The notes beneath the pieces were generated by a model. It did not search any database, had not been told where the DNA came from, and worked only from the letters and a program-made list of their open reading frames with translations. Both the position numbers and the translations under genes were made by a program. Source: a virus. Taken from it: 64,000 nucleotides of DNA. Position 1 is the stretch's first letter. Each line of letters opens with the position of its first letter. The stretch covers positions 26,914 to 90,913 of the IMG/VR virus record IMGVR_UViG_3300023172_000016; one strand, 5' to 3'. This document shows positions 3,748 to 57,936 of this stretch, one piece after another.

Positions 3748-4377
3748 TTATTTTATCCATCTATGATAATCCATATTTTGCATTTGGATATCACTAAACC
3801 CAACTCTCTGAAATGCAATTGATGGAGAAAAGCAATATGCCTTACATCCCTTTTGTAAATCAGTAAGCATCACATCCAATGGTGCATTCTTTTTAGATAT
3901 CCGATCCAGAAAATTTCTAAAGAATTTACTGTTAATGCCAACAGCGTGAGTTGAGAATGTGTGATGCACTTGAACTAAATTCTCAGATACCTGGATTGGA
4001 GCCTTAGCCCCTTTATGAGAGTTGTGATTACCACCAAAATATAAAAGGTCCCAGTCACCCGGAATTTGTTGACTCAATTCACTGAAAGACTCAATCTCTG
4101 GTGTAAAGTAGCAGTCATCCTCAAGGATTAATAGATTACCAGAGTTTCCTTCTATACATTTTTCGACTATATCAATGTTGGAAAGGACCAGACCCAGCTC
4201 GGATGTTTTAATCGAGGTTTCTTTTGGATTTAGTTTCTTTCCGTCATAAGCAGAAAACCGCTGGACATTTTCTATATCCCATTTTTCGAACTCCAAAAGA
4301 GATTCTTCCCACTTGTCCATCCTCCTATCTAAATTGACACAAAATATGGATTCAAAGAAACTATTAATACCGGACAT
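3748..4377 (-). CDS. glycosyltransferase family 25-like
   Basis: CVNLDRRMDKW, RFSAYDG, LILEDD, WDLLYFGG, STHA motifs. Confidence 0.85.
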   Translation of the reverse strand: MSGINSFFESIFCVNLDRRMDKWEESLLEFEKWDIENVQRFSAYDGKKLNPKETSIKTSELGLVLSNIDIVEKCIEGNSGNLLILEDDCYFTPEIESFSELSQQIPGDWDLLYFGGNHNSHKGAKAPIQVSENLVQVHHTFSTHAVGINSKFFRNFLDRISKKNAPLDVMLTDLQKGCKAYCFSPSIAFQRVGFSDIQMQNMDYHRWIK

Positions 4378-31651: not shown

Positions 31652-32938
31652 TTATTGATTTGCAGATTCCTTTTGTTTAATCATTTCAGCTTTTTGTACA
31701 GCGGATTTCCTGAAGTAGTCTAAATTTTTTAAAATCCTGTCCTTTTCTTGGTTTGGCAGTGACGGGAAAAAGTCCATTTTTACTACCGCTTCAGTCTTTT
31801 CAAAAGCTACTTCCGGATTCCCAGTATGAAAAGCTGCAAGTGAGTATTCATCTAAAAGTCTCCATTGCCATATATCGGGCTCAACAAAAAGTATATCAGA
31901 GGTCCCCGGGTTCTTCACTGCCATATTACCGTATGTGAATGACATCACCCACCTTCCACGCTCTCTTAACTTTCTCATTGCATGGAAAACAGCCTCTAAC
32001 CTCTCCGGTCTATATTCCCAAGCTCTAGAATATGCTTGGATAACCTCATCCGGATGTCTCCCCAGCTGCTCTTTAATTTTACCAATCATGTACATTGAAT
32101 AGTATACCTCTTCTTCCCATCCACCGGCTTCAATTCTTCTTTCATAAGCGTCAATGGCTTTTAACTTTTGTCCGGAGTCACGGTAGCTTTGTGCAAGATA
32201 GAACATGTACCTTGCGTTATCTGGTTCATCTTCCAATGCTTTCTCAAGAATCTCTGCATCATTAGAGTATTTTTCTTCAAGTGAATTTGCTCTTTTTAAA
32301 GGACTAATATCAGCATCCACATGACATCTATCTGAGGGGATTTGATATTGAACCAGTTGCTCTTTTCCGGGAAGATCTAAATACTCGTGAAGAACCCCCT
32401 TATAAACCCAGTCCTGATCAGATCTCACAATCTGAGCACGGTGGTACTGAAGGTTATTTAACTTATAAAGAATTTGGTAGCAATCCACATCTTTAGTAAG
32501 TCCGTGAAATGGATTAATCGAGCTATCTGTTGCTTGAAAGGTATCATCAGCATCTATGATCCATCGATAGTCACACTTACCCTTTGCTAATTCCAAGCTC
32601 TCTGTGCGGTTTACTTCAAAGTTTACCCAGGGTCTTTCGTGTAATTCGCCCTCGATTCCGAGCTCTTCCATTGTGGAATTGATTTCATCTATTGTATTAT
32701 CAGAAGAACCTGTATCAACTATAACATAATATGAAATATAAGGAGCAACCTGGGTTAAGCACTTTCTAATAGTATCACCTTCGTCCTTGACAATCATTAC
32801 CAAACACATACTAATGCCTTGCAATGAGGTATCTACTGGTTTATTTTCCAAAGTAGGATTGGGTACTGCTTTTAGTTTAGGTGTTTTCTTTTTACTAGAA
32901 AGCTTGTTGGATTTTTTCCTCTTAGTTTTAGGTGCCAT
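31652..32938 (-). CDS. GT2 glycosyltransferase with TPR repeats
   Basis: LVMIVKDE, VDTGSSD, IDADD, GVLHE, FYLAQSYRD. Confidence 0.88.
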   Translation of the reverse strand: MAPKTKRKKSNKLSSKKKTPKLKAVPNPTLENKPVDTSLQGISMCLVMIVKDEGDTIRKCLTQVAPYISYYVIVDTGSSDNTIDEINSTMEELGIEGELHERPWVNFEVNRTESLELAKGKCDYRWIIDADDTFQATDSSINPFHGLTKDVDCYQILYKLNNLQYHRAQIVRSDQDWVYKGVLHEYLDLPGKEQLVQYQIPSDRCHVDADISPLKRANSLEEKYSNDAEILEKALEDEPDNARYMFYLAQSYRDSGQKLKAIDAYERRIEAGGWEEEVYYSMYMIGKIKEQLGRHPDEVIQAYSRAWEYRPERLEAVFHAMRKLRERGRWVMSFTYGNMAVKNPGTSDILFVEPDIWQWRLLDEYSLAAFHTGNPEVAFEKTEAVVKMDFFPSLPNQEKDRILKNLDYFRKSAVQKAEMIKQKESANQ

Positions 32939-52696: not shown

Positions 52697-53653
52697 TTAG
52701 AGATCTGCGTATAGGTCGTCTAAAGACGAAGATGTTTCTGGTGCTGATGGTTGTTGAATACCTGCACTCGGTGCTGGGGTAGAATCAGATCCAACTTTCG
52801 TTGAAGAAGCCTCTTTGTAAATTTCATTAGACGAAGAAGATGAAGTTGAAGGAGATGTTGTTTTATTAGCGCCTCCCAAAACTTCATTTACCAACCTGCC
52901 ATCAGGTACCGTGTTTTGGATAATATTCATAACACGATCGGTAGTTTTTTCGTCCCAATCTTTGTACTCAAACTGTGTAAGATTGTCTGGCCCAGTTTTG
53001 AGGTATTCCATGATGGTGTTCATATCATCCTGGTTTTTCTCCATCTTTTTACCGTTGATCTCGACTGGTGTTCTGTCACCAACAAAAGAACAAAGATCGT
53101 AGTTGTTCCATTCTCCAACTTTTCTTGTATGAACTGAGAAAAGCTTTCCTTCAAATAGATCGTACGGGTTGCAAGCATCCCCATATTCTGGTTTTAGCTG
53201 TGCTTCAAGCATATCATTTAGTTTTCTACCAAACTTAAAAACCATAATATTACCCTCCAATTCAGGATTGTGCTTGTCTTGCACAATTTGAATTAGTGAA
53301 TAGTAGTCTTCCTTTCTGGAGAAGCTTTTAGACAATTCCTGATCTGCAGCAGAATGAGAATTCTTTAGCTTCCAGAACATGTCTTTCAAAACAGATTTTT
53401 TACCAACTGTCGAAGGACAGTCTACTGGGAATCCATCTCCAGTGCTTGGATCGTTTAGGTAAACGTAATACTTGTGAATTTTTGACTTTGTAGGGTCAAC
53501 GTGATTAGGAAGAAAGCGGATCAGCGACTTGTAAATTCCATCCTTTCCGTTCTCCGGATATGGTTTGTAAAATTCTGTTCCCTCTGAATTCTCCTTTTTT
53601 GTTTTCGTTACGAACGCTTCTGCGTCCAGGTTGAAAATGTCTAAATTACTCAT
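52697..53653 (-). CDS. single-stranded DNA-binding protein (gp32-like)
   Basis: LIRFLP, FKFGRK, PYDLFEG, NYD; acidic tail LDDLYADL. Confidence 0.85.
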   Translation of the reverse strand: MSNLDIFNLDAEAFVTKTKKENSEGTEFYKPYPENGKDGIYKSLIRFLPNHVDPTKSKIHKYYVYLNDPSTGDGFPVDCPSTVGKKSVLKDMFWKLKNSHSAADQELSKSFSRKEDYYSLIQIVQDKHNPELEGNIMVFKFGRKLNDMLEAQLKPEYGDACNPYDLFEGKLFSVHTRKVGEWNNYDLCSFVGDRTPVEINGKKMEKNQDDMNTIMEYLKTGPDNLTQFEYKDWDEKTTDRVMNIIQNTVPDGRLVNEVLGGANKTTSPSTSSSSSNEIYKEASSTKVGSDSTPAPSAGIQQPSAPETSSSLDDLYADL

Positions 53654-53692: not shown

Positions 53693-54475
53693 CTAAGTGT
53701 CCCAAAAGTTTCCCTTAGATTGTATATATGCATAATTTTTTTTATCTATTCGTTCACCTGTGGATTCAATTTCCCACACTCTCTTACCTCTTAAGGATAC
53801 CTTTACCATAGGGCGGGAAAGGTTAAATTCAGAATTAAGTATATGATGCTTTAAAAGTGTCTCTGGGTGAAAGTAAACACCAGAGAGAATGTATTCTTCC
53901 ATCATCTCGTAGAGTTTTGAGTAGTGTTCCATTGCTTCCCTACCTCCCCATGCAAAAATATCATTAACCCCGCCCTTCCAATCAAAACCGGGAGGAATAC
54001 ATATAGTTTTTAGATTTGGATCCAAAGGGATGTCGTTGTGGATTTTTATGTCCATTCTTCCTTTTATAATATAATCATATCTCTCACCAGTTAGGTTTTC
54101 ATACTCCTCTAAAAGGAGAAAGGACTGTCTTATCTTATACCACATCAAGAAAACCGAAACTGGATTTATCTCACCAGTTTGTGGGCCATAGCTTTCAAAC
54201 GACCACGCTTTATCTATTATCCTTGATATACCCGGGGATTCAAACTTGTCCATCTTTATGGTTACTGGAGAATAAAGACTTGCTAAAGTGTCGGTGCTTA
54301 GGGTGTCAGTAAGGTGGTGTGTTTCTGCATGAAGGGAATTTTTTATAGTTTCAGATGGGCTCCAGGTAGATATAAAAACATCTGGCTTAAACCTATCCAA
54401 AATTCTGCCTTTTAAGTAGGGAAAGGTTTCTTTTGCCTCCCTAATCTGGCCAGGAAGTAAAAGAGCTACTTTCAT
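53693..54475 (-). CDS. hypothetical glycan-biosynthesis protein
   Basis: KVALLLPGQIR, DVFISTW, YDYIIKGRMD, NDIFAWG, HPETLL. Confidence 0.6.
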   Translation of the reverse strand: MKVALLLPGQIREAKETFPYLKGRILDRFKPDVFISTWSPSETIKNSLHAETHHLTDTLSTDTLASLYSPVTIKMDKFESPGISRIIDKAWSFESYGPQTGEINPVSVFLMWYKIRQSFLLLEEYENLTGERYDYIIKGRMDIKIHNDIPLDPNLKTICIPPGFDWKGGVNDIFAWGGREAMEHYSKLYEMMEEYILSGVYFHPETLLKHHILNSEFNLSRPMVKVSLRGKRVWEIESTGERIDKKNYAYIQSKGNFWDT

Positions 54476-54920
54476 TTGTACTTAAAAATTTGTACTTCTC
54501 TATATAATCTGAGCAAATTCCACAACATCCGTTAACAGGATCATCATAGATCTCAGGAAGAACTGCGATACTTTTATTTATGGGCTGATTTCCAGGGAAA
54601 GCCCAAATGAAAGACTTAGAAGTAAGAGTTATTCTGTCTTGTTCATGCCAAAATACATTGAATTCAACATACTCCTTTAGATACACAAGGGCAGAGATGT
54701 TTTTGCAGTGGATCCAAAGGTTGTCTGATCTCTCCATAAGCCAATCTAAGGAGACCTTAGAATTTGGGGAATCGTGTCCTAAATAAAGTGAAGATCCAGA
54801 TATCCAAACATCTATCTCCACATCATAACCAAGATCAAGAGCTTCTTGTATGTAGTCAAGGTTGTTCTCTCTTGATGGTATTGGCCCCTTTATATTTCCC
54901 CGGTGTGATATTAGTCTCAT
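54441..54920 (-). CDS. GDPD/PLC-like phosphodiesterase
   Basis: ISHRGN, EN, VEIDVW, LGHD, ICSD. Confidence 0.75.
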   Translation of the reverse strand: MRLISHRGNIKGPIPSRENNLDYIQEALDLGYDVEIDVWISGSSLYLGHDSPNSKVSLDWLMERSDNLWIHCKNISALVYLKEYVEFNVFWHEQDRITLTSKSFIWAFPGNQPINKSIAVLPEIYDDPVNGCCGICSDYIEKYKFLSTNESSSFTSWPD

Positions 54921-54921
54921 C

Positions 54922-56157
54922 CTAAAATATCCTGTAATCTAGGTCTTTAGAAAATGTTCTTTTTCCCCATTTCTTTATGGCACAAACATATTCCTCTTCT
55001 TGGAAATCATTATTGATGGCTTGCTTCATTGCCAAGCCACCAGCTCTAGTTCCCATTGGATGTCCATGCATAGCTCCTCCAACATTAGCCATCCAATCCA
55101 CACTATGTATAGATTCATTGATATAATCAACCAGACCAGGATGCATTCCACAACTGAGAGCTGGAACTATATTGTAATGCCAGAGGACTTTTAGAGTATC
55201 CCGTATCTCATCATCATCCTGGTTCATATAACCTCCAATCATTCCAGCATGTATAGAATCCACACCAGACCATCCAGCAATTTTACAAATCACAGGCCAG
55301 TAGATGTGGAATGGTGCCCTTTTGTCAGTAAAGAATTTATCACCACTTTTTTGAAAATGTATCCATAGGTTAGGGTTTTGCTTCCTTATAGCACGATATA
55401 CCCCAAGACCGCTCCAGACATTTATGTGGATTCCGTTCCCGCCATTATTTGCAACAAAATTTGCTCTCTCCAAAGCATATGGGCTATCACCATTTATACA
55501 AAAGCAATAAATAACATCTGGTGCATTCTCTTTCAACCAGGAAGAAATAAGTGGAACCCTTTCCTCAAAAGGACAATGACTAGGATTCCCTAAGAGCTCG
55601 TCTTCTTTTATGAAATTAACTCCTCCGTAGACCATCTCCTTTACTGCCTCTAGAAGAACCTCCGGACTCATACCAACTTTAGGCTTAATAATACCCCCAA
55701 AGAATGGCTTATCTATAACATTATTGAATCTTCTAAACCCATCTATACCATAAGCAGGGGCAAGAGAAAAATCAGATTCTACCTTATCAGGAAGGCTAAT
55801 ATCTAAAATATGACATTTTACAATTTCTTCGATGTCCACCTGTCCACCAGCTATATGACAAAGAATTTGGGATATTCCATCCTCCTCAAGGTTAATATTG
55901 TCAAGAGGGAATGCAATGGAAACTTCCCCAGATTTTTTTTGGGATAACTTCTTCTCGTCATCCAAAACGAAGCAGCTGTGATCCAAAAACATCTGATCGG
56001 TTTCCCAAATGCTCCTATTATTAGGATTGCCAATACTTTGACCTATTGCAAGATTCCAGGAAGCATCCCTTAATGATGTTTTAGCCTCTAGAAAATATCT
56101 TACTACAAAGTACTTTTGAACATCCAACGATTCTTCTTTTGTGAATATACTTATCAT
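54922..56157 (-). CDS. RuBisCO-like protein (form IV)
   Basis: GIIKPKVG, FIKEDE, DSIHAG, LSCGMHPG, GGAMHGHP. Confidence 0.9.
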   Translation of the reverse strand: MISIFTKEESLDVQKYFVVRYFLEAKTSLRDASWNLAIGQSIGNPNNRSIWETDQMFLDHSCFVLDDEKKLSQKKSGEVSIAFPLDNINLEEDGISQILCHIAGGQVDIEEIVKCHILDISLPDKVESDFSLAPAYGIDGFRRFNNVIDKPFFGGIIKPKVGMSPEVLLEAVKEMVYGGVNFIKEDELLGNPSHCPFEERVPLISSWLKENAPDVIYCFCINGDSPYALERANFVANNGGNGIHINVWSGLGVYRAIRKQNPNLWIHFQKSGDKFFTDKRAPFHIYWPVICKIAGWSGVDSIHAGMIGGYMNQDDDEIRDTLKVLWHYNIVPALSCGMHPGLVDYINESIHSVDWMANVGGAMHGHPMGTRAGGLAMKQAINNDFQEEEYVCAIKKWGKRTFSKDLDYRIF

Positions 56158-56480
56158 TTTACAATAAATTTATCTCCTGGTACTGATGGAGTTTTTACTA
56201 TAAAGACCTCGCAATCTTCAAGAAAAACTGGGTCCGCAACTTCACCTTTCCTAAGTATGAATATGTCGCCTGCTACTAATTCAGTTCCTTGTATAATCAT
56301 TTTACCACTTCTCAGGAAATTTATTTCATCCGCCTCCTTGTGATAATGCTTAGGCCAATCTTCACCTTGGATATGCTTCTTGTAGCAAACCTCAAAATCA
56401 CTTGTAGGAAAAGCAACAGGAGAGAAATTACCTGCGTACCAACCTCCTTGCATATTATCAATCTTAAATACTTCCATCAA
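56154..56480 (-). CDS. cupin-domain protein
   Basis: GWYAGNF, HYHKEADEIN, KTPSVPGDK. Confidence 0.75.
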   Translation of the reverse strand: MMEVFKIDNMQGGWYAGNFSPVAFPTSDFEVCYKKHIQGEDWPKHYHKEADEINFLRSGKMIIQGTELVAGDIFILRKGEVADPVFLEDCEVFIVKTPSVPGDKFIVK

Positions 56481-57199
56481 TTTACAATTCCTAAATATCT
56501 TTTTAAATCCTCGGGTGTACCGATCGGAAAGTGAAGGTTATAGAAGAATGGAAGTATTTTCTTTCCCTTTTTTATAAGATAATTATATGTAGGGGCAACA
56601 TAGAATTCGTTGTTGTAGCGATCGTTCAGTAAAATCATCTCCTCCGCAGAATGAACGAAATCTGATCCTTTGCTCCAAAAGTGTAATCCATTGGTAGCAA
56701 TGTTTGATATTACTATTTTTTCTTTGACATCACAAACCTCGCCGTTGGGATCCAATTTTACATAACTGTTCTTCTTAGAAGATGAAAGAAAACATCCAAG
56801 CAATCCGTCACATCCAGTAACCCCGACAAAGTCAATAATGTTATCGAGATCATAATCCAATATAACCTGGTCACAGTTGATGACCATCAAAGGATCTTCG
56901 TTGTTTATTAAATCCTTTGCAACCAAAACAGTAGAAGCGGGTCCTTCAGTTAGCTTACTAACAGATCTTGTTTCATAAGTAATATTAAGATCACTTATGT
57001 GTTTCTCAAAATCTGACACGGACACGAATTCCTCGTTGATAACGAAAATGAAATTAGCAGAGGGATGATTTAGGTTCCTCACCACTGCTTTAATCATAGG
57101 TTCTCCGTTAACATCTATAAAAGGCTTCGGAGTTGCATAGCCTGCATCAGAAAACCTTTTTCCTGCACCTCCGAGAGGTATAAGTATATTAATCTTCAC
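56477..57199 (-). CDS. sugar-phosphate nucleotidyltransferase (NTP_transferase)
   Basis: IPLGGAGKRF...PKPFI, NCDQ, EK, NNEFYVAP, GTPEDL. Confidence 0.85.
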   Translation of the reverse strand: MKINILIPLGGAGKRFSDAGYATPKPFIDVNGEPMIKAVVRNLNHPSANFIFVINEEFVSVSDFEKHISDLNITYETRSVSKLTEGPASTVLVAKDLINNEDPLMVINCDQVILDYDLDNIIDFVGVTGCDGLLGCFLSSSKKNSYVKLDPNGEVCDVKEKIVISNIATNGLHFWSKGSDFVHSAEEMILLNDRYNNEFYVAPTYNYLIKKGKKILPFFYNLHFPIGTPEDLKRYLGIVN

Positions 57200-57869
57200 T
57201 TTTTTCTTTTATAGAGTCATATAAATAGAGACAAGTCCAAGTAGCATCTATAATGTCATCGAGTGGCTTGTTCACATTACCCGAAGGTGTAATCCATTCG
57301 TCCTTATTGTCATCTAATATGTTAGTAAAAGATTTTAGATTAGTTTCCAGGAATTCCTTTTCAACAAGAGCGTTATAGAGTTCGTGCTTTTTAGCATTGC
57401 CCTTGAACGCAAACTTTTTTATTGAGGTTGGAGAATAGACATAAAAGTTGTCGCTACCTGTGTGATCTACAATCTTTTTCCTAAGCAAAGCAGTAGCCAT
57501 AGAAATGTCAATGAGAGCGTTACCGTTGGAAGCAAAGCTTAATCCCTCCATAGCAACTATAACGTCATCACCACCACAAATATCTTCTATCTCCAACCAA
57601 AATTTATCCACGAGATCTTGGAAATAATCGATCTTGATTCTTTCCCTCTCTGAATAATCCTTTGGCATTTTATCTTTGCCCATGAAAAGGAGTACATAAT
57701 CCTCAGACTTATCCTCAGATAAAATGTGATAAGGCTTTTTGGTATTCTTCTTTAGAGATTCTGGTGTCCTTTCACTTCTTGTTAAGGATCCCCATGTAAA
57801 CTCGTTATCTCTAAAAACACAAAATGCTGGGGAGTTAAGTGAAAAGTCTATTCCGACTAACGTTTTCAA
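57189..57869 (-). CDS. RuvC-like Holliday junction resolvase
   Basis: VGIDFS, AMEG, PTSIKKFA...GNAKK, DDIIDA. Confidence 0.8.
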   Translation of the reverse strand: MKTLVGIDFSLNSPAFCVFRDNEFTWGSLTRSERTPESLKKNTKKPYHILSEDKSEDYVLLFMGKDKMPKDYSERERIKIDYFQDLVDKFWLEIEDICGGDDVIVAMEGLSFASNGNALIDISMATALLRKKIVDHTGSDNFYVYSPTSIKKFAFKGNAKKHELYNALVEKEFLETNLKSFTNILDDNKDEWITPSGNVNKPLDDIIDATWTCLYLYDSIKEKSED

Positions 57870-57907: not shown

Positions 57908-57936
57908 AAAAAAGCCCTCCACATTGGAAGGGCTTT
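57908..57936 (-). terminator. intrinsic terminator
   Basis: AAAGCCCTTCCA...TGGAGGGCTTT plus T run. Confidence 0.6.

What the first reader, a model, noticed from the sequence alone, without database searches (positions are those of the whole stretch)
53693..57199. Phage-encoded RuBisCO-like protein in a five-gene sugar-nucleotide cluster
Seen: overlapping or abutting genes for a nucleotidyltransferase, a cupin, an RLP, a GDPD-like phosphodiesterase and a glycan-associated protein, inserted between the resolvase and SSB genes. The RLP keeps KPK and the carbamylation/Mg motif (KEDE). By eye it has HFQKS in place of HxHRA and GMIGGY in place of the loop-6 lysine motif, so CO2 fixation is unlikely. 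Established: form IV RLPs act as enolases, isomerases or (trans/de)carboxylases on sugar phosphates. Inference: the cluster makes an unusual activated sugar or polyol for the phage's glycosyltransferases, a biosynthetic rather than catabolic RLP role.
Basis: partly seen in the sequence, partly recalled or inferred. Interest (0 to 1): 0.75.

Follow-up and report, generated by a model that had tools for sequence, protein, structure and literature searches.

The report
Phage RuBisCO-like enzyme in sugar-activation cassette
A jumbo phage carries a RuBisCO relative that has lost the residues needed to fix CO2 and sits in one operon with a sugar-activating enzyme, a small metal enzyme, a miniature phosphodiesterase and a glycosyltransferase-like protein, so it probably helps build an unusual activated sugar, a role never tested for this enzyme family.

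Summary
Five tightly packed minus-strand genes (57199-53693) encode a sugar-1-phosphate nucleotidyltransferase, a metal-type mono-cupin, a RuBisCO-like protein (RLP), a 150-residue compact GDPD barrel and a GT-A-fold glycosyltransferase-like protein.

The RLP keeps the Mg/carbamate enolisation core and the phosphate-site glycines. It has Q, Q, Q and GGY in place of E60, N123, H294 and K334.

It belongs to the phage 'form IV-like' clade published by Jaffe et al. 2019, so a phage RLP is not new. This scan has also followed up the same cassette several times on other DNA.

New here:
- The 3.5-kb module is an accessory insertion. Kin phages have RuvC next to SSB, and five kin genomes that are at least 90% complete have no match to the RLP.
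- RLP, NT and cupin occur fused in one chain.
- The linkage is asymmetric. The RLP almost always has NT and cupin beside it, but mini-GDPD/HAD-NT cassettes mostly lack an RLP.
- The same module sits in glycan islands of SAR11 and of CPR bacteria.
- A 1.8-kb recent recombination tract ends inside the RLP gene.

The substrate and product remain unknown. A biosynthetic role is well supported by context but is unproven.

The parts
56477..57199 (-). Sugar-1-phosphate nucleotidyltransferase (NT), 240 aa, GTG start; N-terminal GGAGKRF loop
   Evidence: Pfam PF00483 4e-12 and phrog_3980 1e-55. NCBIfam weak hits to GlmU-N, AglF, RmlA, HddC and MurU. PDB 4evw 9e-13. Next to the RLP in 96% of 49 dereplicated loci.
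56154..56480 (-). Small mono-cupin, 107-108 aa (likely ATG start at 56477), with invariant H45-x-H47-x4-E52-x6-G59
   Evidence: Alignment A3. Profile vs PDB: quercetinase 1.4e-6, Cupin_2, a cupin deposited as 'M6P isomerase' (7zvm) 1.2e-4. phrog_24762 1e-29. Fused to the NT in about 12 loci. 85% of the 66 nearest cupin loci carry the RLP.
54922..56157 (-). RuBisCO-like protein, 411 aa, phage 'form IV-like' clade. Signature (window residue = spinach position): Q40 = E60, N44/P45 = T65/W66, Q106 = N123, K158, K160, K184-E-D186-E187, Q269-K270 = H294-R295, H303 = H327, G308-G309-Y310 in place of loop-6 K334, S335-C336-G337, G360-G361
   Evidence: Pfam PF00016 7e-32. Sequence and PDB alignments. 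27-sequence alignment with invariants. Tree and signature. No PHROG. No match in 50,697 GenBank phage records.
54441..54920 (-). Mini-GDPD: compact glycerophosphodiester-phosphodiesterase-like barrel, 159 aa. Invariant H6, R7, E35, D37, H49, H71, K73, H92, C136, D138. The last ~15 aa are low-confidence and overlap the next gene by 35 nt
   Evidence: Alignment A1. Profile vs PDB GDPD 7e0v 1.5e-4. AF2 pLDDT 94.5. Foldseek top hits are GDPDs. VIA Z 10.5 / rmsd 3.5 / 141 aligned, and about 33 top rows are GDPD or PLD-like.
53693..54475 (-). GT-A-fold glycosyltransferase-like protein ('SGQxR' family), 260 aa. Invariant G9 and R140-x-D142
   Evidence: Alignment A4. AF2 pLDDT 88, pTM 0.87. Foldseek BoGT6a 2.7e-7. 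VIA Z 10-11.4 to COLGALT1, BoGT6a, mannosylglycerate synthase and hyaluronan synthase. Fused to the mini-GDPD in L064.
57189..57869 (-). Upstream flank: RuvC-like Holliday-junction resolvase. Overlaps the NT start by 11 nt and is probably the first gene of the transcription unit
   Evidence: phrog_159 4.7e-15. Adjacent to SSB in kin that lack the module.
52697..53653 (-). Downstream flank: gp32-type single-strand DNA-binding protein
   Evidence: Pfam gp32 4e-11 and phrog_224 2e-32.
57911..57936 (-). Terminator-like hairpin (10-bp stem followed by a T run) just upstream of the resolvase gene. No such site lies between the resolvase and SSB
   Evidence: sequence read.
53730..55530 (.). Recent recombination tract. 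It is 99-100% identical in DNA to contig L082, while the flanks on both sides are about 70-80% identical. The left end lies inside the RLP gene
   Evidence: Sliding identity. Protein identities to L082: P159 99%, P260 97%, RLP 89%, cupin 78%, NT 73%.

Best explanation
The five genes form an accessory glycan-precursor cassette that a subclade of uncultured jumbo phages inserted between its resolvase and SSB genes.

Shown:
- The RLP is an intact, strongly constrained member of a distinct RuBisCO-superfamily clade.
- It keeps the carbamylated-lysine/Mg site (K184, D186, E187), the enolising lysines (K158, K160) and both phosphate-site elements (K/R270, H303, S335, G337, G360-G361).
- It has lost every residue specific to CO2 addition and C-C cleavage (E60, N123, H294, K334).
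- It has gained invariant Q40, Q106, Q269, Y310 and C336.

Inferred:
- The RLP enolises a ketose phosphate or bisphosphate and reprotonates it. That makes it an epimerase or keto-isomerase, like the known RuBP-to-XuBP side reaction or the R. rubrum MTRu-1-P isomerase.
- The metal cupin does a further isomerisation.
- The NT couples the resulting sugar phosphate to an NTP.
- The GT-A-like protein transfers the sugar to an unknown acceptor.
- The mini-GDPD belongs to a second sub-module that normally pairs with a beta-PGM-type HAD-NT fusion. It processes a phosphodiester, and its exact step is unresolved.

The RLP is an optional add-on that diversifies the sugar made by an otherwise self-sufficient activation cassette.
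For: - Domain identities.
- Active-site pattern: identical in 37 clade representatives, including SAR11, Verrucomicrobiae, CPR and Planctomycetales copies and the fusion proteins.
- Purifying selection: dN 0.06-0.27 with saturated dS.
- Rosetta-stone fusions: RLP-NT-cupin in P0122 and P0123. NT-cupin in about 12 loci. HAD_2-NT in 6 RLP loci and most mini-GDPD loci. GDPD-GT-A in L064.
- Linkage: NT 96%, cupin 92% and mini-GDPD 82% of 49 dereplicated RLP loci, while the RuvC/SSB flanks are present in only about 19%.
- Neighbours: SDR epimerase/dehydratase, CmcI/FkbM/TylF methyltransferases, DegT and GT2.
- Cellular copies: in the SAR11 HVR2 next to the rRNA operon, with GT9, CTP_transf_3 and HAD-NT. 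In CPR clusters of GT2s and methyltransferases.
- The HAD partner is nearest to sugar phosphatases, beta-PGM and CbbY.
- Other sugar genes in the same phage fragment: a GT25, a GT2-domain gene and an SDR.
Against: - No substrate, product or acceptor is identified, and nothing here is biochemical.
- The window's own cassette has no HAD, kinase or mutase to make a sugar-1-phosphate, and none was found in the 90.9-kb fragment, which is only 32% of the genome.
- In one Verrucomicrobiae chromosome the RLP-NT-cupin trio is not in a glycan island.
- NT-cupin and mini-GDPD cassettes work without an RLP in most phages, so the RLP step is dispensable and could lie off the main route.
- The cupin has no specific family assignment.
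- The GT-A call rests on fold only, and the protein lacks a canonical DxD motif.
Confidence: 0.55

Rival explanations
1. The RLP acts after activation. The NT first makes an NDP-sugar and an SDR makes an NDP-4-keto sugar. The RLP and cupin then tailor this nucleotide-linked keto sugar by enolisation (epimerisation or keto-isomerisation), as RmlC and FdtA do.
For: - SDR epimerase/dehydratase, DegT aminotransferase and O-methyltransferases, the usual partners of NDP-4-keto-6-deoxy sugar routes, lie beside the RLP in 12-24% of dereplicated loci.
- NT-cupin and RLP-NT-cupin fusions suggest consecutive steps.
- Loop 6 is remodelled, which could open the site.
Against: - The window's module and most other modules have no SDR next to them. 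The only SDR in this fragment lies about 60 kb away.
- The cupin keeps a metal-type HxH..E motif and shows no similarity to RmlC or FdtA families at E up to 10.
- Both RuBisCO phosphate sites are kept, which fits a small (bis)phosphate better than a nucleotide.
Confidence: 0.2
2. The cassette makes the donor for glycosylating the phage's own DNA (a hypermodified base) rather than a surface or virion glycan.
For: - In this lineage the module sits inside the replication/recombination block, probably co-transcribed with the resolvase and SSB.
- An unchecked first-stage note reports a second thymidylate-synthase-like gene next to glycosyltransferases elsewhere in this genome.
Against: - In other phages the module has quite different flanks, and in cells it sits in surface-glycan islands.
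- The position between RuvC and SSB is a recent insertion in one subclade.
- No DNA-modifying enzyme is linked to the module in the 49 dereplicated loci.
Confidence: 0.1
3. The RLP serves catabolism or salvage during infection. It could work in a nucleotide-to-pentose-bisphosphate route like the archaeal AMP pathway, or in a methionine-salvage-like RLP / HAD phosphatase / cupin dioxygenase trio. On this reading the sugar-activation neighbours are incidental.
For: - The best HMM score is to form III RuBisCO (157 bits).
- The combination of RLP, HAD phosphatase and cupin recalls MtnW-MtnX-MtnD, and RLP plus cupin recalls the R. rubrum MTA route (established knowledge, not tested here).
- CPR bacteria that carry the gene have RuBP-forming nucleotide salvage (PMC6389311).
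Against: - E60, N123, H294 and K334 are all replaced, and invariantly so.
- Scores are far below the MtnW, OiaX and form II/III cut-offs, and the clade is separate in the tree.
- Linkage to the NT, including covalent fusion, is near-universal.
- No AMP phosphorylase, R15P isomerase or MtnA/B/K genes appeared among the recurrent neighbour families, although only the families in 9 or more loci were annotated.
Confidence: 0.05
4. The cassette is a defence or counter-defence device, for example one that destroys or mimics a nucleotide-derived signal, and not a glycan pathway.
For: Accessory, mobile and recombining phage modules between core genes are often of this kind. A nucleotidyltransferase plus a phosphodiesterase could make and break a signal.
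Against: - No PADLOC family matches any of the five proteins.
- The neighbours are sugar-tailoring enzymes and glycosyltransferases.
- The NT is of the sugar-1-phosphate type, not a CD-NTase or Pol-beta type.
Confidence: 0.04

Closest known systems
Phage and Beckwithbacteria 'form IV-like' RuBisCO-like proteins (Jaffe, Castelle, Dupont & Banfield 2019, Mol Biol Evol, PMC6389311)
   Same: - Borne by large uncultured phages recorded in IMG/VR.
- Highly divergent from other RLPs, with only part of the catalytic and binding residues kept.
- Groups with a Beckwithbacteria copy. L091 here is 50% identical and has the same 21-position signature apart from F for H at one site.
   Different: That paper left the function open and, in the passages read, says nothing about the gene neighbourhood. 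This report adds the NT-cupin-RLP linkage and fusions, the mini-GDPD/GT-A sub-module, the SAR11, Verrucomicrobiae, Saccharibacteria and Planctomycetales copies, and the insertion history.
Rhodospirillum rubrum 'DeepYkr' RLP (5-methylthio-ribulose-1-P isomerase) with its neighbouring cupin (Erb et al. 2012; from my own knowledge)
   Same: An RLP that only enolises and reprotonates a ketose phosphate, and works next to a small cupin.
   Different: The phage clade is phylogenetically separate and has a different residue set. Its partners are an NT and glycan genes, not MTA-salvage genes.
MtnW/YkrW 2,3-diketo-5-methylthiopentyl-1-phosphate enolase
   Same: RuBisCO fold with the carbamate/Mg enolisation core. 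In methionine salvage it is followed by a HAD phosphatase and a cupin dioxygenase.
   Different: NCBIfam scores are 112 bits (cut-off 409) and 81 bits (cut-off 513.6). It forms a separate clade. No Mtn genes are nearby.
Type II PMI-GMP (ManC/CpsB) bifunctional mannose-1-phosphate guanylyltransferase / mannose-6-phosphate isomerase
   Same: An N-terminal NTP_transferase domain followed by a C-terminal metal cupin, as in the roughly 352-aa NT-cupin fusions.
   Different: No match to PF01050 MannoseP_isomer. The cupin is minimal (107 aa) and lacks the motif-2 histidine.
GDP-heptose-type route GmhA-HddA-GmhB-HddC, and the RLP-less cassettes of cultured Synechococcus phages Bellamy and S-SM2
   Same: - An enediol-type sugar-phosphate isomerase, a HAD phosphatase and an HddC-like NT.
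- The cyanophage clusters hold homologues of the NT (fused to a phosphatase in Bellamy only), the mini-GDPD and the SGQxR GT-A protein; Bellamy also has a 42%-identical cupin, S-SM2 only a weak cupin match (30% identity over 81 residues, E 7e-7).
   Different: Those cassettes have a small SIS 'phosphoheptose isomerase', a class II aldolase-family protein and a kinase, but no RLP. Whether the RLP replaces one of these is untested. Class II aldolase was found in 0 of 80 mini-GDPD loci.

Membership tests
RuBisCO large-subunit superfamily (Pfam PF00016 / PF02788) | Scores above the curated cut-off on the catalytic TIM-barrel domain, and has the N-terminal domain | tested here: met
   PF00016 111.3 bits against cut-off 30.1. 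PF02788 20.5 against 20.7, so borderline. 99 PDB RuBisCO/RLP sequences at E <= 1e-3.
Bona fide RuBisCO (forms I-III) | Full catalytic set: E60, N123, K175, K177, K201, D203, E204, H294, H327, K334 | tested here: not met
   E60 to Q40, N123 to Q106, H294 to Q269, and K334 absent (GGY). These are invariant across the clade. TIGR03326 scores 157 bits against cut-off 497, and NF010002 92 against 489.
MtnW/YkrW DK-MTP-1-P enolase | Scores over the NCBIfam equivalog cut-off and branches with MtnW | tested here: not met
   NF007095 111.9 against 409. TIGR03332 81.1 against 513.6. The MtnW-like clade (P0185, 391 bits) is separate in the tree.
OiaX 3-oxo-isoapionate-4-phosphate decarboxylase RLPs | Scores over the NCBIfam cut-off and branches with OiaX-like sequences | tested here: not met
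   NF042437 122.9 against 700. The OiaX-like clade (P0172) is separate.
Phage/Beckwithbacteria 'form IV-like' RLP clade (Jaffe et al. 2019) | Phage-borne, clusters with Beckwithbacteria copies, and lies outside all other RLP and RuBisCO forms | tested here: met
   Monophyletic at local support 99-100 against 85 other representatives. The Beckwithbacteria MAG copy L091 is 50% identical and has the same 21-position signature apart from F for H at one site. Their own sequences were not at hand for a direct comparison.
Sugar-1-phosphate nucleotidyltransferases (PF00483) | Pfam score over the cut-off and the N-terminal G-x-G-x-R loop | tested here: met
   46.7 bits against cut-off 21.2. GGAGKRF at residues 10-16. 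The base and sugar specificity were not testable.
Glycerophosphodiester phosphodiesterase (GDPD) family | HR..E.D..H catalytic and metal residues on a (beta/alpha)8 barrel of about 230-250 aa | tested here: inconclusive
   The residues are invariant. Profile to GDPD 7e0v 1.5e-4, but over 52 residues only. Fold Z 10.5 to GDPDs. However, there is no Pfam GDPD hit and the protein has only about 150 residues, so the barrel is trimmed.
Cupin superfamily (metal-binding mono-cupins) | Motif 1, G(x)5HxH(x)3-4E(x)6G, and motif 2 with a fourth ligand His | tested here: inconclusive
   Motif 1 is present and invariant, but there is no motif-2 His. Pfam Cupin_7 scores 16.2 against cut-off 27. The profile hits solved cupins at 1.4e-6.
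GT-A glycosyltransferases | GT-A Rossmann-like fold with a DxD (or equivalent) nucleotide-sugar/metal motif | tested here: inconclusive
   The fold is met: Foldseek 2.7e-7, Z 10-11.4, 176-202 residues aligned. The motif is R140-x-D142, not DxD. No Pfam GT family matches, only a weak DUF7796 hit.
Known anti-phage defence systems (PADLOC-DB 2.0) | Any of the five proteins matches a defence-system model | tested here: not met
   No family at E <= 0.01.

The most novel reading that the evidence does not exclude
This clade is the first RuBisCO-superfamily branch with an anabolic role. It would catalyse a committed enolisation step (epimerisation or keto-isomerisation of a ketose phosphate or bisphosphate) that feeds a dedicated nucleotidyltransferase, giving a so far undescribed NDP-sugar. 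Aquatic jumbo phages, SAR11, Verrucomicrobiae and CPR bacteria would then put this sugar on surface or virion glycans. The RLP would act as a swappable 'diversifier' of a common activation cassette, which could matter for phage-host recognition in the ocean.
Probability: 0.4. Interest if true: 0.8.

Novelty: new variant of a known kind. Interest (0 to 1): 0.6.

Why it matters
Every RuBisCO-like protein with a known function works in catabolism or salvage. These include methionine and MTA salvage and apionate breakdown.

A clade welded to a nucleotidyltransferase, sometimes covalently, points to an untested biosynthetic use of the RuBisCO enolisation machinery. That clade is embedded in glycan gene islands of abundant marine and freshwater bacteria and of their large phages.

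The open question left by Jaffe et al. 2019 was what phage RLPs do. It is now directly testable with a three-protein reconstitution, or with a single natural fusion protein.

If the product decorates cell or virion surfaces, the cassette is also a candidate driver of phage-host specificity. This applies especially to SAR11, where it lies in hypervariable region 2.

For this window in particular the finding is one more member of a cassette that this scan has already met several times.

Tried and rejected
- **True carboxylase or methionine-salvage RLP:** rejected on residues, HMM cut-offs and the tree.
- **Class II aldolase as a non-orthologous substitute for the RLP:** suggested by cyanophages Bellamy and S-SM2. 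Not supported, because no class II aldolase lies in any of 80 mini-GDPD-centred IMG/VR loci.
- **Mini-GDPD as a dedicated partner of the RLP:** rejected. Only 10 of 80 mini-GDPD loci have an RLP within 8 kb, most have a HAD-NT fusion instead, and kin phages carry the mini-GDPD alone between RuvC and SSB.
- **Defence system:** no PADLOC match.
- **Cultured phage carrying the RLP:** none found among 50,697 GenBank records by DNA or protein search.
- **Phage promoter box TARYTTTG:** no enrichment. Sigma-70-like sites are at chance level.
- **HAD_2 and RpiB in the phage fragment:** none found, but only 32% of the genome is held.
- **Literature:** searches for RLP with nucleotidyltransferase, polysaccharide, glycosyltransferase, SAR11 HVR or auxiliary metabolic genes found nothing on this cassette.
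- **Labelled reference sequences of RuBisCO forms:** could not be fetched. Control genomes give no loci, so tree clades were labelled by residue signature and by NCBIfam scores of ten representatives.
- **Model coordinates:** not available to scripts, so distances of the new invariant residues to the metal site were not measured.

Full report
**What is there.**
The window is the last 64 kb of a 90.9-kb IMG/VR viral record. CheckV rates that record at 32% complete, which implies a jumbo phage of roughly 280 kb.

Five minus-strand ORFs lie between 57199 and 53693. They overlap or abut one another. A RuvC-like resolvase lies upstream and a gp32-type SSB and a primase lie downstream.

A strong terminator-like hairpin at 57936-57911 precedes the resolvase gene. 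No such site lies between the resolvase and SSB. The module is therefore probably co-transcribed with them.

**The five proteins.**
1. The 240-aa protein is a sugar-1-phosphate nucleotidyltransferase (NT).
   - Pfam PF00483 scores 4e-12.
   - Weak NCBIfam hits go to GlmU-N, AglF, RmlA, HddC and MurU.
   - The best solved relative is the Vibrio NDP-sugar pyrophosphorylase 4evw.
2. The 108-aa protein is a mono-cupin.
   - It has an invariant HxH(x)4E(x)6G metal motif but no motif-2 histidine.
   - Its family profile hits solved cupins at 1.4e-6.
3. The 411-aa protein is a RuBisCO-like protein (RLP), with PF00016 at 7e-32.
4. The 159-aa protein has invariant HR, ExD and HD residues.
   - Its profile hits a GDPD at 1.5e-4.
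   - Its confident AF2 model (pLDDT 94.5) aligns with GDPDs at Z 10.5, rmsd 3.5 A, over 141 residues.
   - It is a trimmed GDPD barrel.
5. The 260-aa protein has no sequence family.
   - Its model (pLDDT 88) has a GT-A glycosyltransferase fold: Foldseek 2.7e-7 and Z 10-11.4.
   - All of the top 50 rows are GT-A transferases.

**The RLP active site.**
Pairwise alignments to solved RuBisCOs and a 27-sequence family alignment give the following picture.

Kept:
- K175 and K177 (KPK).
- K201, D203 and E204 (KEDE).
- H327, S379, G381 and G403/G404.
- R295, as K or R.

Replaced, in every member:
- E60 by Q, T65/W66 by N-P, N123 by Q and H294 by Q.
- The loop-6 lysine, whose place is taken by G-G-Y.
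- G380 by Cys.

The enolisation and phosphate-binding machinery is therefore intact. The residues for CO2 addition, hydration and C-C cleavage are gone. New polar or acid-base residues (Y310, C336) are fixed.

Synonymous sites between close relatives are saturated while dN is 0.06-0.27. All five genes are therefore under strong purifying selection.

**Phylogenetic place.**
A search of 1.84 billion representatives gave 975 hits at E <= 1e-3 and 55 at <= 1e-30.

In a FastTree of 123 full-length rows, the 37 rows with the Q/NP/Q...Q-K/R...GGY...SCG signature form one clade, with local support 99-100. That clade includes the window, other phages, a Pelagibacter copy and a Verrucomicrobiae copy. 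It is apart from three groups:
- rows with the complete carboxylase set (form-III-like by NCBIfam);
- MtnW-like rows;
- OiaX-like rows.

The window protein scores far below every NCBIfam cut-off.

Copies from Beckwithbacteria, Saccharibacteria, other Patescibacteria, SAR11 and Planctomycetales carry essentially the same signature: 18 of the 21 positions are invariant and the rest differ only conservatively (H/F at position 267, Q/H at 106). So do two fusion proteins.

This is the 'form IV-like' phage/Beckwithbacteria clade of Jaffe et al. 2019. They reported about 80 phage sequences and left the function open (PMC6389311). The presence of an RLP in a phage is therefore already known.

**Conservation of the neighbourhood.**
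Eighty IMG/VR loci with RLPs 51-86% identical were fetched. They were dereplicated at 90% identity, and at least 3 kb of flank was required on both sides. That left 49 loci.

| Gene next to the RLP | Share of 49 loci |
|---|---|
| NT | 96% |
| Cupin | 92% |
| Mini-GDPD | 82% |
| GT-A-like protein | 41% |
| RuvC or SSB flank | about 19% |

Recurrent extra neighbours are SDR epimerase/dehydratases, CmcI/FkbM/TylF sugar methyltransferases, DegT aminotransferases and GT2s.

Gene fusions link the parts:
- NT-cupin, about 352 aa, in about 12 loci.
- HAD_2-NT, about 455 aa.
- NT-HAD.
- GDPD-GT-A.
- Two proteins of 813-817 aa that are RLP-NT-cupin in one chain.

**Cellular copies.**
The genome scan found the module in several cellular records.
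- A complete Ca. Pelagibacter chromosome. There the order is mini-GDPD, NT, RLP. A second HAD-NT, a GT9, a 2-hydroxyacid dehydrogenase and a CTP_transf_3 gene lie nearby. The locus sits directly beside the 23S/16S rRNA genes, which is where SAR11 hypervariable region 2 lies. By established knowledge that region is a surface-glycan island.
- SAR11 single-cell genomes, where it lies with an SDR.
- CPR genomes, where it lies among GT2s, SAM methyltransferases and a B12-radical-SAM enzyme.
- A Planctomycetales MAG.
- A Verrucomicrobiae chromosome. There the RLP-NT-cupin trio stands alone among unrelated genes.

**Insertion history.**
Eighty loci were fetched with the SSB as query.
- In about 62 of them the RuvC-SSB spacer is 70-720 bp.
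- In the 13 nearest kin (SSB at least 75% identical) it is 3.5 kb and holds the full five-gene module.
- Four loci hold only the mini-GDPD in that slot.

No match to the RLP was found in ten kin genomes, including five rated at least 90% complete (250-373 kb, one with terminal repeats). The same search does find it in the window's own record. The module is thus an accessory insertion in one subclade.

Compared with contig L082, the window is 99-100% identical in DNA from about 55530 to 53730. L082 is binned, perhaps wrongly, as a Saprospirales MAG. The flanks on both sides are about 70-80% identical. This is a recent recombination tract. Its left end lies inside the RLP gene, and it covers the mini-GDPD and GT-A genes.

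**Two sub-modules and an asymmetry.**
At least 598 mini-GDPD stretches exist in IMG/VR. In the 80 loci nearest to the query, the usual neighbour is a HAD_2-NT fusion. Only 10 have an RLP within 8 kb.

The HAD domain is nearest to sugar phosphatases, beta-phosphoglucomutases and CbbY.

Of the 66 nearest cupin loci, all have an NT and 85% have the RLP.

Cultured Synechococcus myoviruses carry related cassettes. Bellamy holds homologues of the NT (there as an NT-HAD fusion), cupin (42% identical), mini-GDPD and GT-A-like proteins. S-SM2 holds the NT, mini-GDPD and a GT-A-like match, but only a weak cupin hit (30% identity over 81 residues). Both also have a small SIS isomerase, a class II aldolase-family protein and a kinase, but no RLP. 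No GenBank phage record has the RLP.

So the RLP depends on NT and cupin, but the reverse does not hold. The window's operon joins an NT-cupin-RLP unit to a mini-GDPD-GT-A unit.

**Mechanism.**
Shown:
- the domain identities;
- an intact enolisation core and loss of the carboxylation residues;
- covalent and genomic linkage to a sugar-type NT;
- a glycan context.

Inferred:
- The RLP enolises a ketose (bis)phosphate and returns the proton elsewhere, so it acts as an epimerase or keto-isomerase.
- The cupin isomerises further.
- The NT activates the product.
- The GT-A-like protein transfers it.
- The mini-GDPD handles a phosphodiester in the companion sub-module.

I put 0.55 on this general reading. 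I place much less on any particular substrate.

The rivals, with evidence and confidence, are given in their own section:
- tailoring of an NDP-keto sugar;
- a DNA-glycosylation donor;
- salvage or catabolism;
- defence or counter-defence.

**Novelty.**
The RLP clade is published. I found the cassette, its fusions and the biosynthetic reading in no paper. The library searched is limited to open-access papers and preprints.

This scan has already followed up the same cassette on several other genomes with the same verdict.
- the insertion test;
- the asymmetry and the two-sub-module reading;
- the recombination tract;
- the cultured RLP-less cassettes as experimental handles.

Noticed in passing
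window 53730-55530 versus L082:8950-10750 (approx.): A 1.8-kb tract is 99-100% identical in DNA to a contig binned as a Saprospirales MAG, between flanks that are about 70-80% identical. One breakpoint lies inside the RLP gene. This indicates recent exchange of the RLP 3' third plus the mini-GDPD and GT-A genes between diverged phages. The MAG label may point to the host or may be a binning error.
   Followed up: partly
L110-L112 and L115 (kin phages), between the RuvC and SSB genes: These relatives carry only the mini-GDPD gene in the slot where the window has the five-gene module. One of them is 88% complete and showed no match to either the RLP or the NT anywhere in its record. This is either a remnant of the module or a stand-alone use of the mini-GDPD.
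   Followed up: partly
L180 (Synechococcus phage Bellamy 158-174 kb) and L181 (S-SM2 150-165 kb): Cultured cyanophages hold large sugar clusters. Bellamy has homologues of the NT (fused to a phosphatase), cupin, SGQxR GT-A protein and mini-GDPD; S-SM2 has the NT, mini-GDPD and GT-A-like protein but only a weak cupin match. Both also have tandem NT-NT proteins, a class II aldolase-family gene, small 'phosphoheptose isomerase' genes and a kinase, but no RLP. They are usable as laboratory systems for the RLP-less cassette.
   Followed up: partly
window 54441-54485: The window's mini-GDPD is 12-15 residues longer at its C-terminus than most relatives (144-147 aa). The extension has pLDDT below 50 and overlaps the start of the GT-A-like gene by 35 nt.
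   Followed up: no
window 3913-4350 and 32534-32803; G000:C1:22908-23516 (outside the window): Other sugar genes lie in the same phage fragment: a GT25-family glycosyltransferase, a GT2 domain in a 445-aa ORF, and an SDR epimerase/dehydratase about 4 kb before the window start.
   Followed up: partly
proteins P0159 (726 aa) and P0164 (742 aa): These two representatives have the complete carboxylase residue set and carry N-terminal extensions of 330-400 residues of unknown nature. They appear to be RuBisCO form-III-like fusion proteins.
   Followed up: no
L065:2762-5386: An 874-aa ORF joins an unannotated ~520-residue N-terminal part (no Pfam hit) to the NT and cupin domains, directly upstream of a mini-GDPD and an RLP.
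   Followed up: no
L086:11762-13132 and L091:11690-13063 (CPR loci): A B12-binding radical-SAM enzyme and several SAM methyltransferases lie in the same glycan clusters as the RLP module in Patescibacteria. This may indicate C-methylated or otherwise heavily tailored sugars.
   Followed up: no
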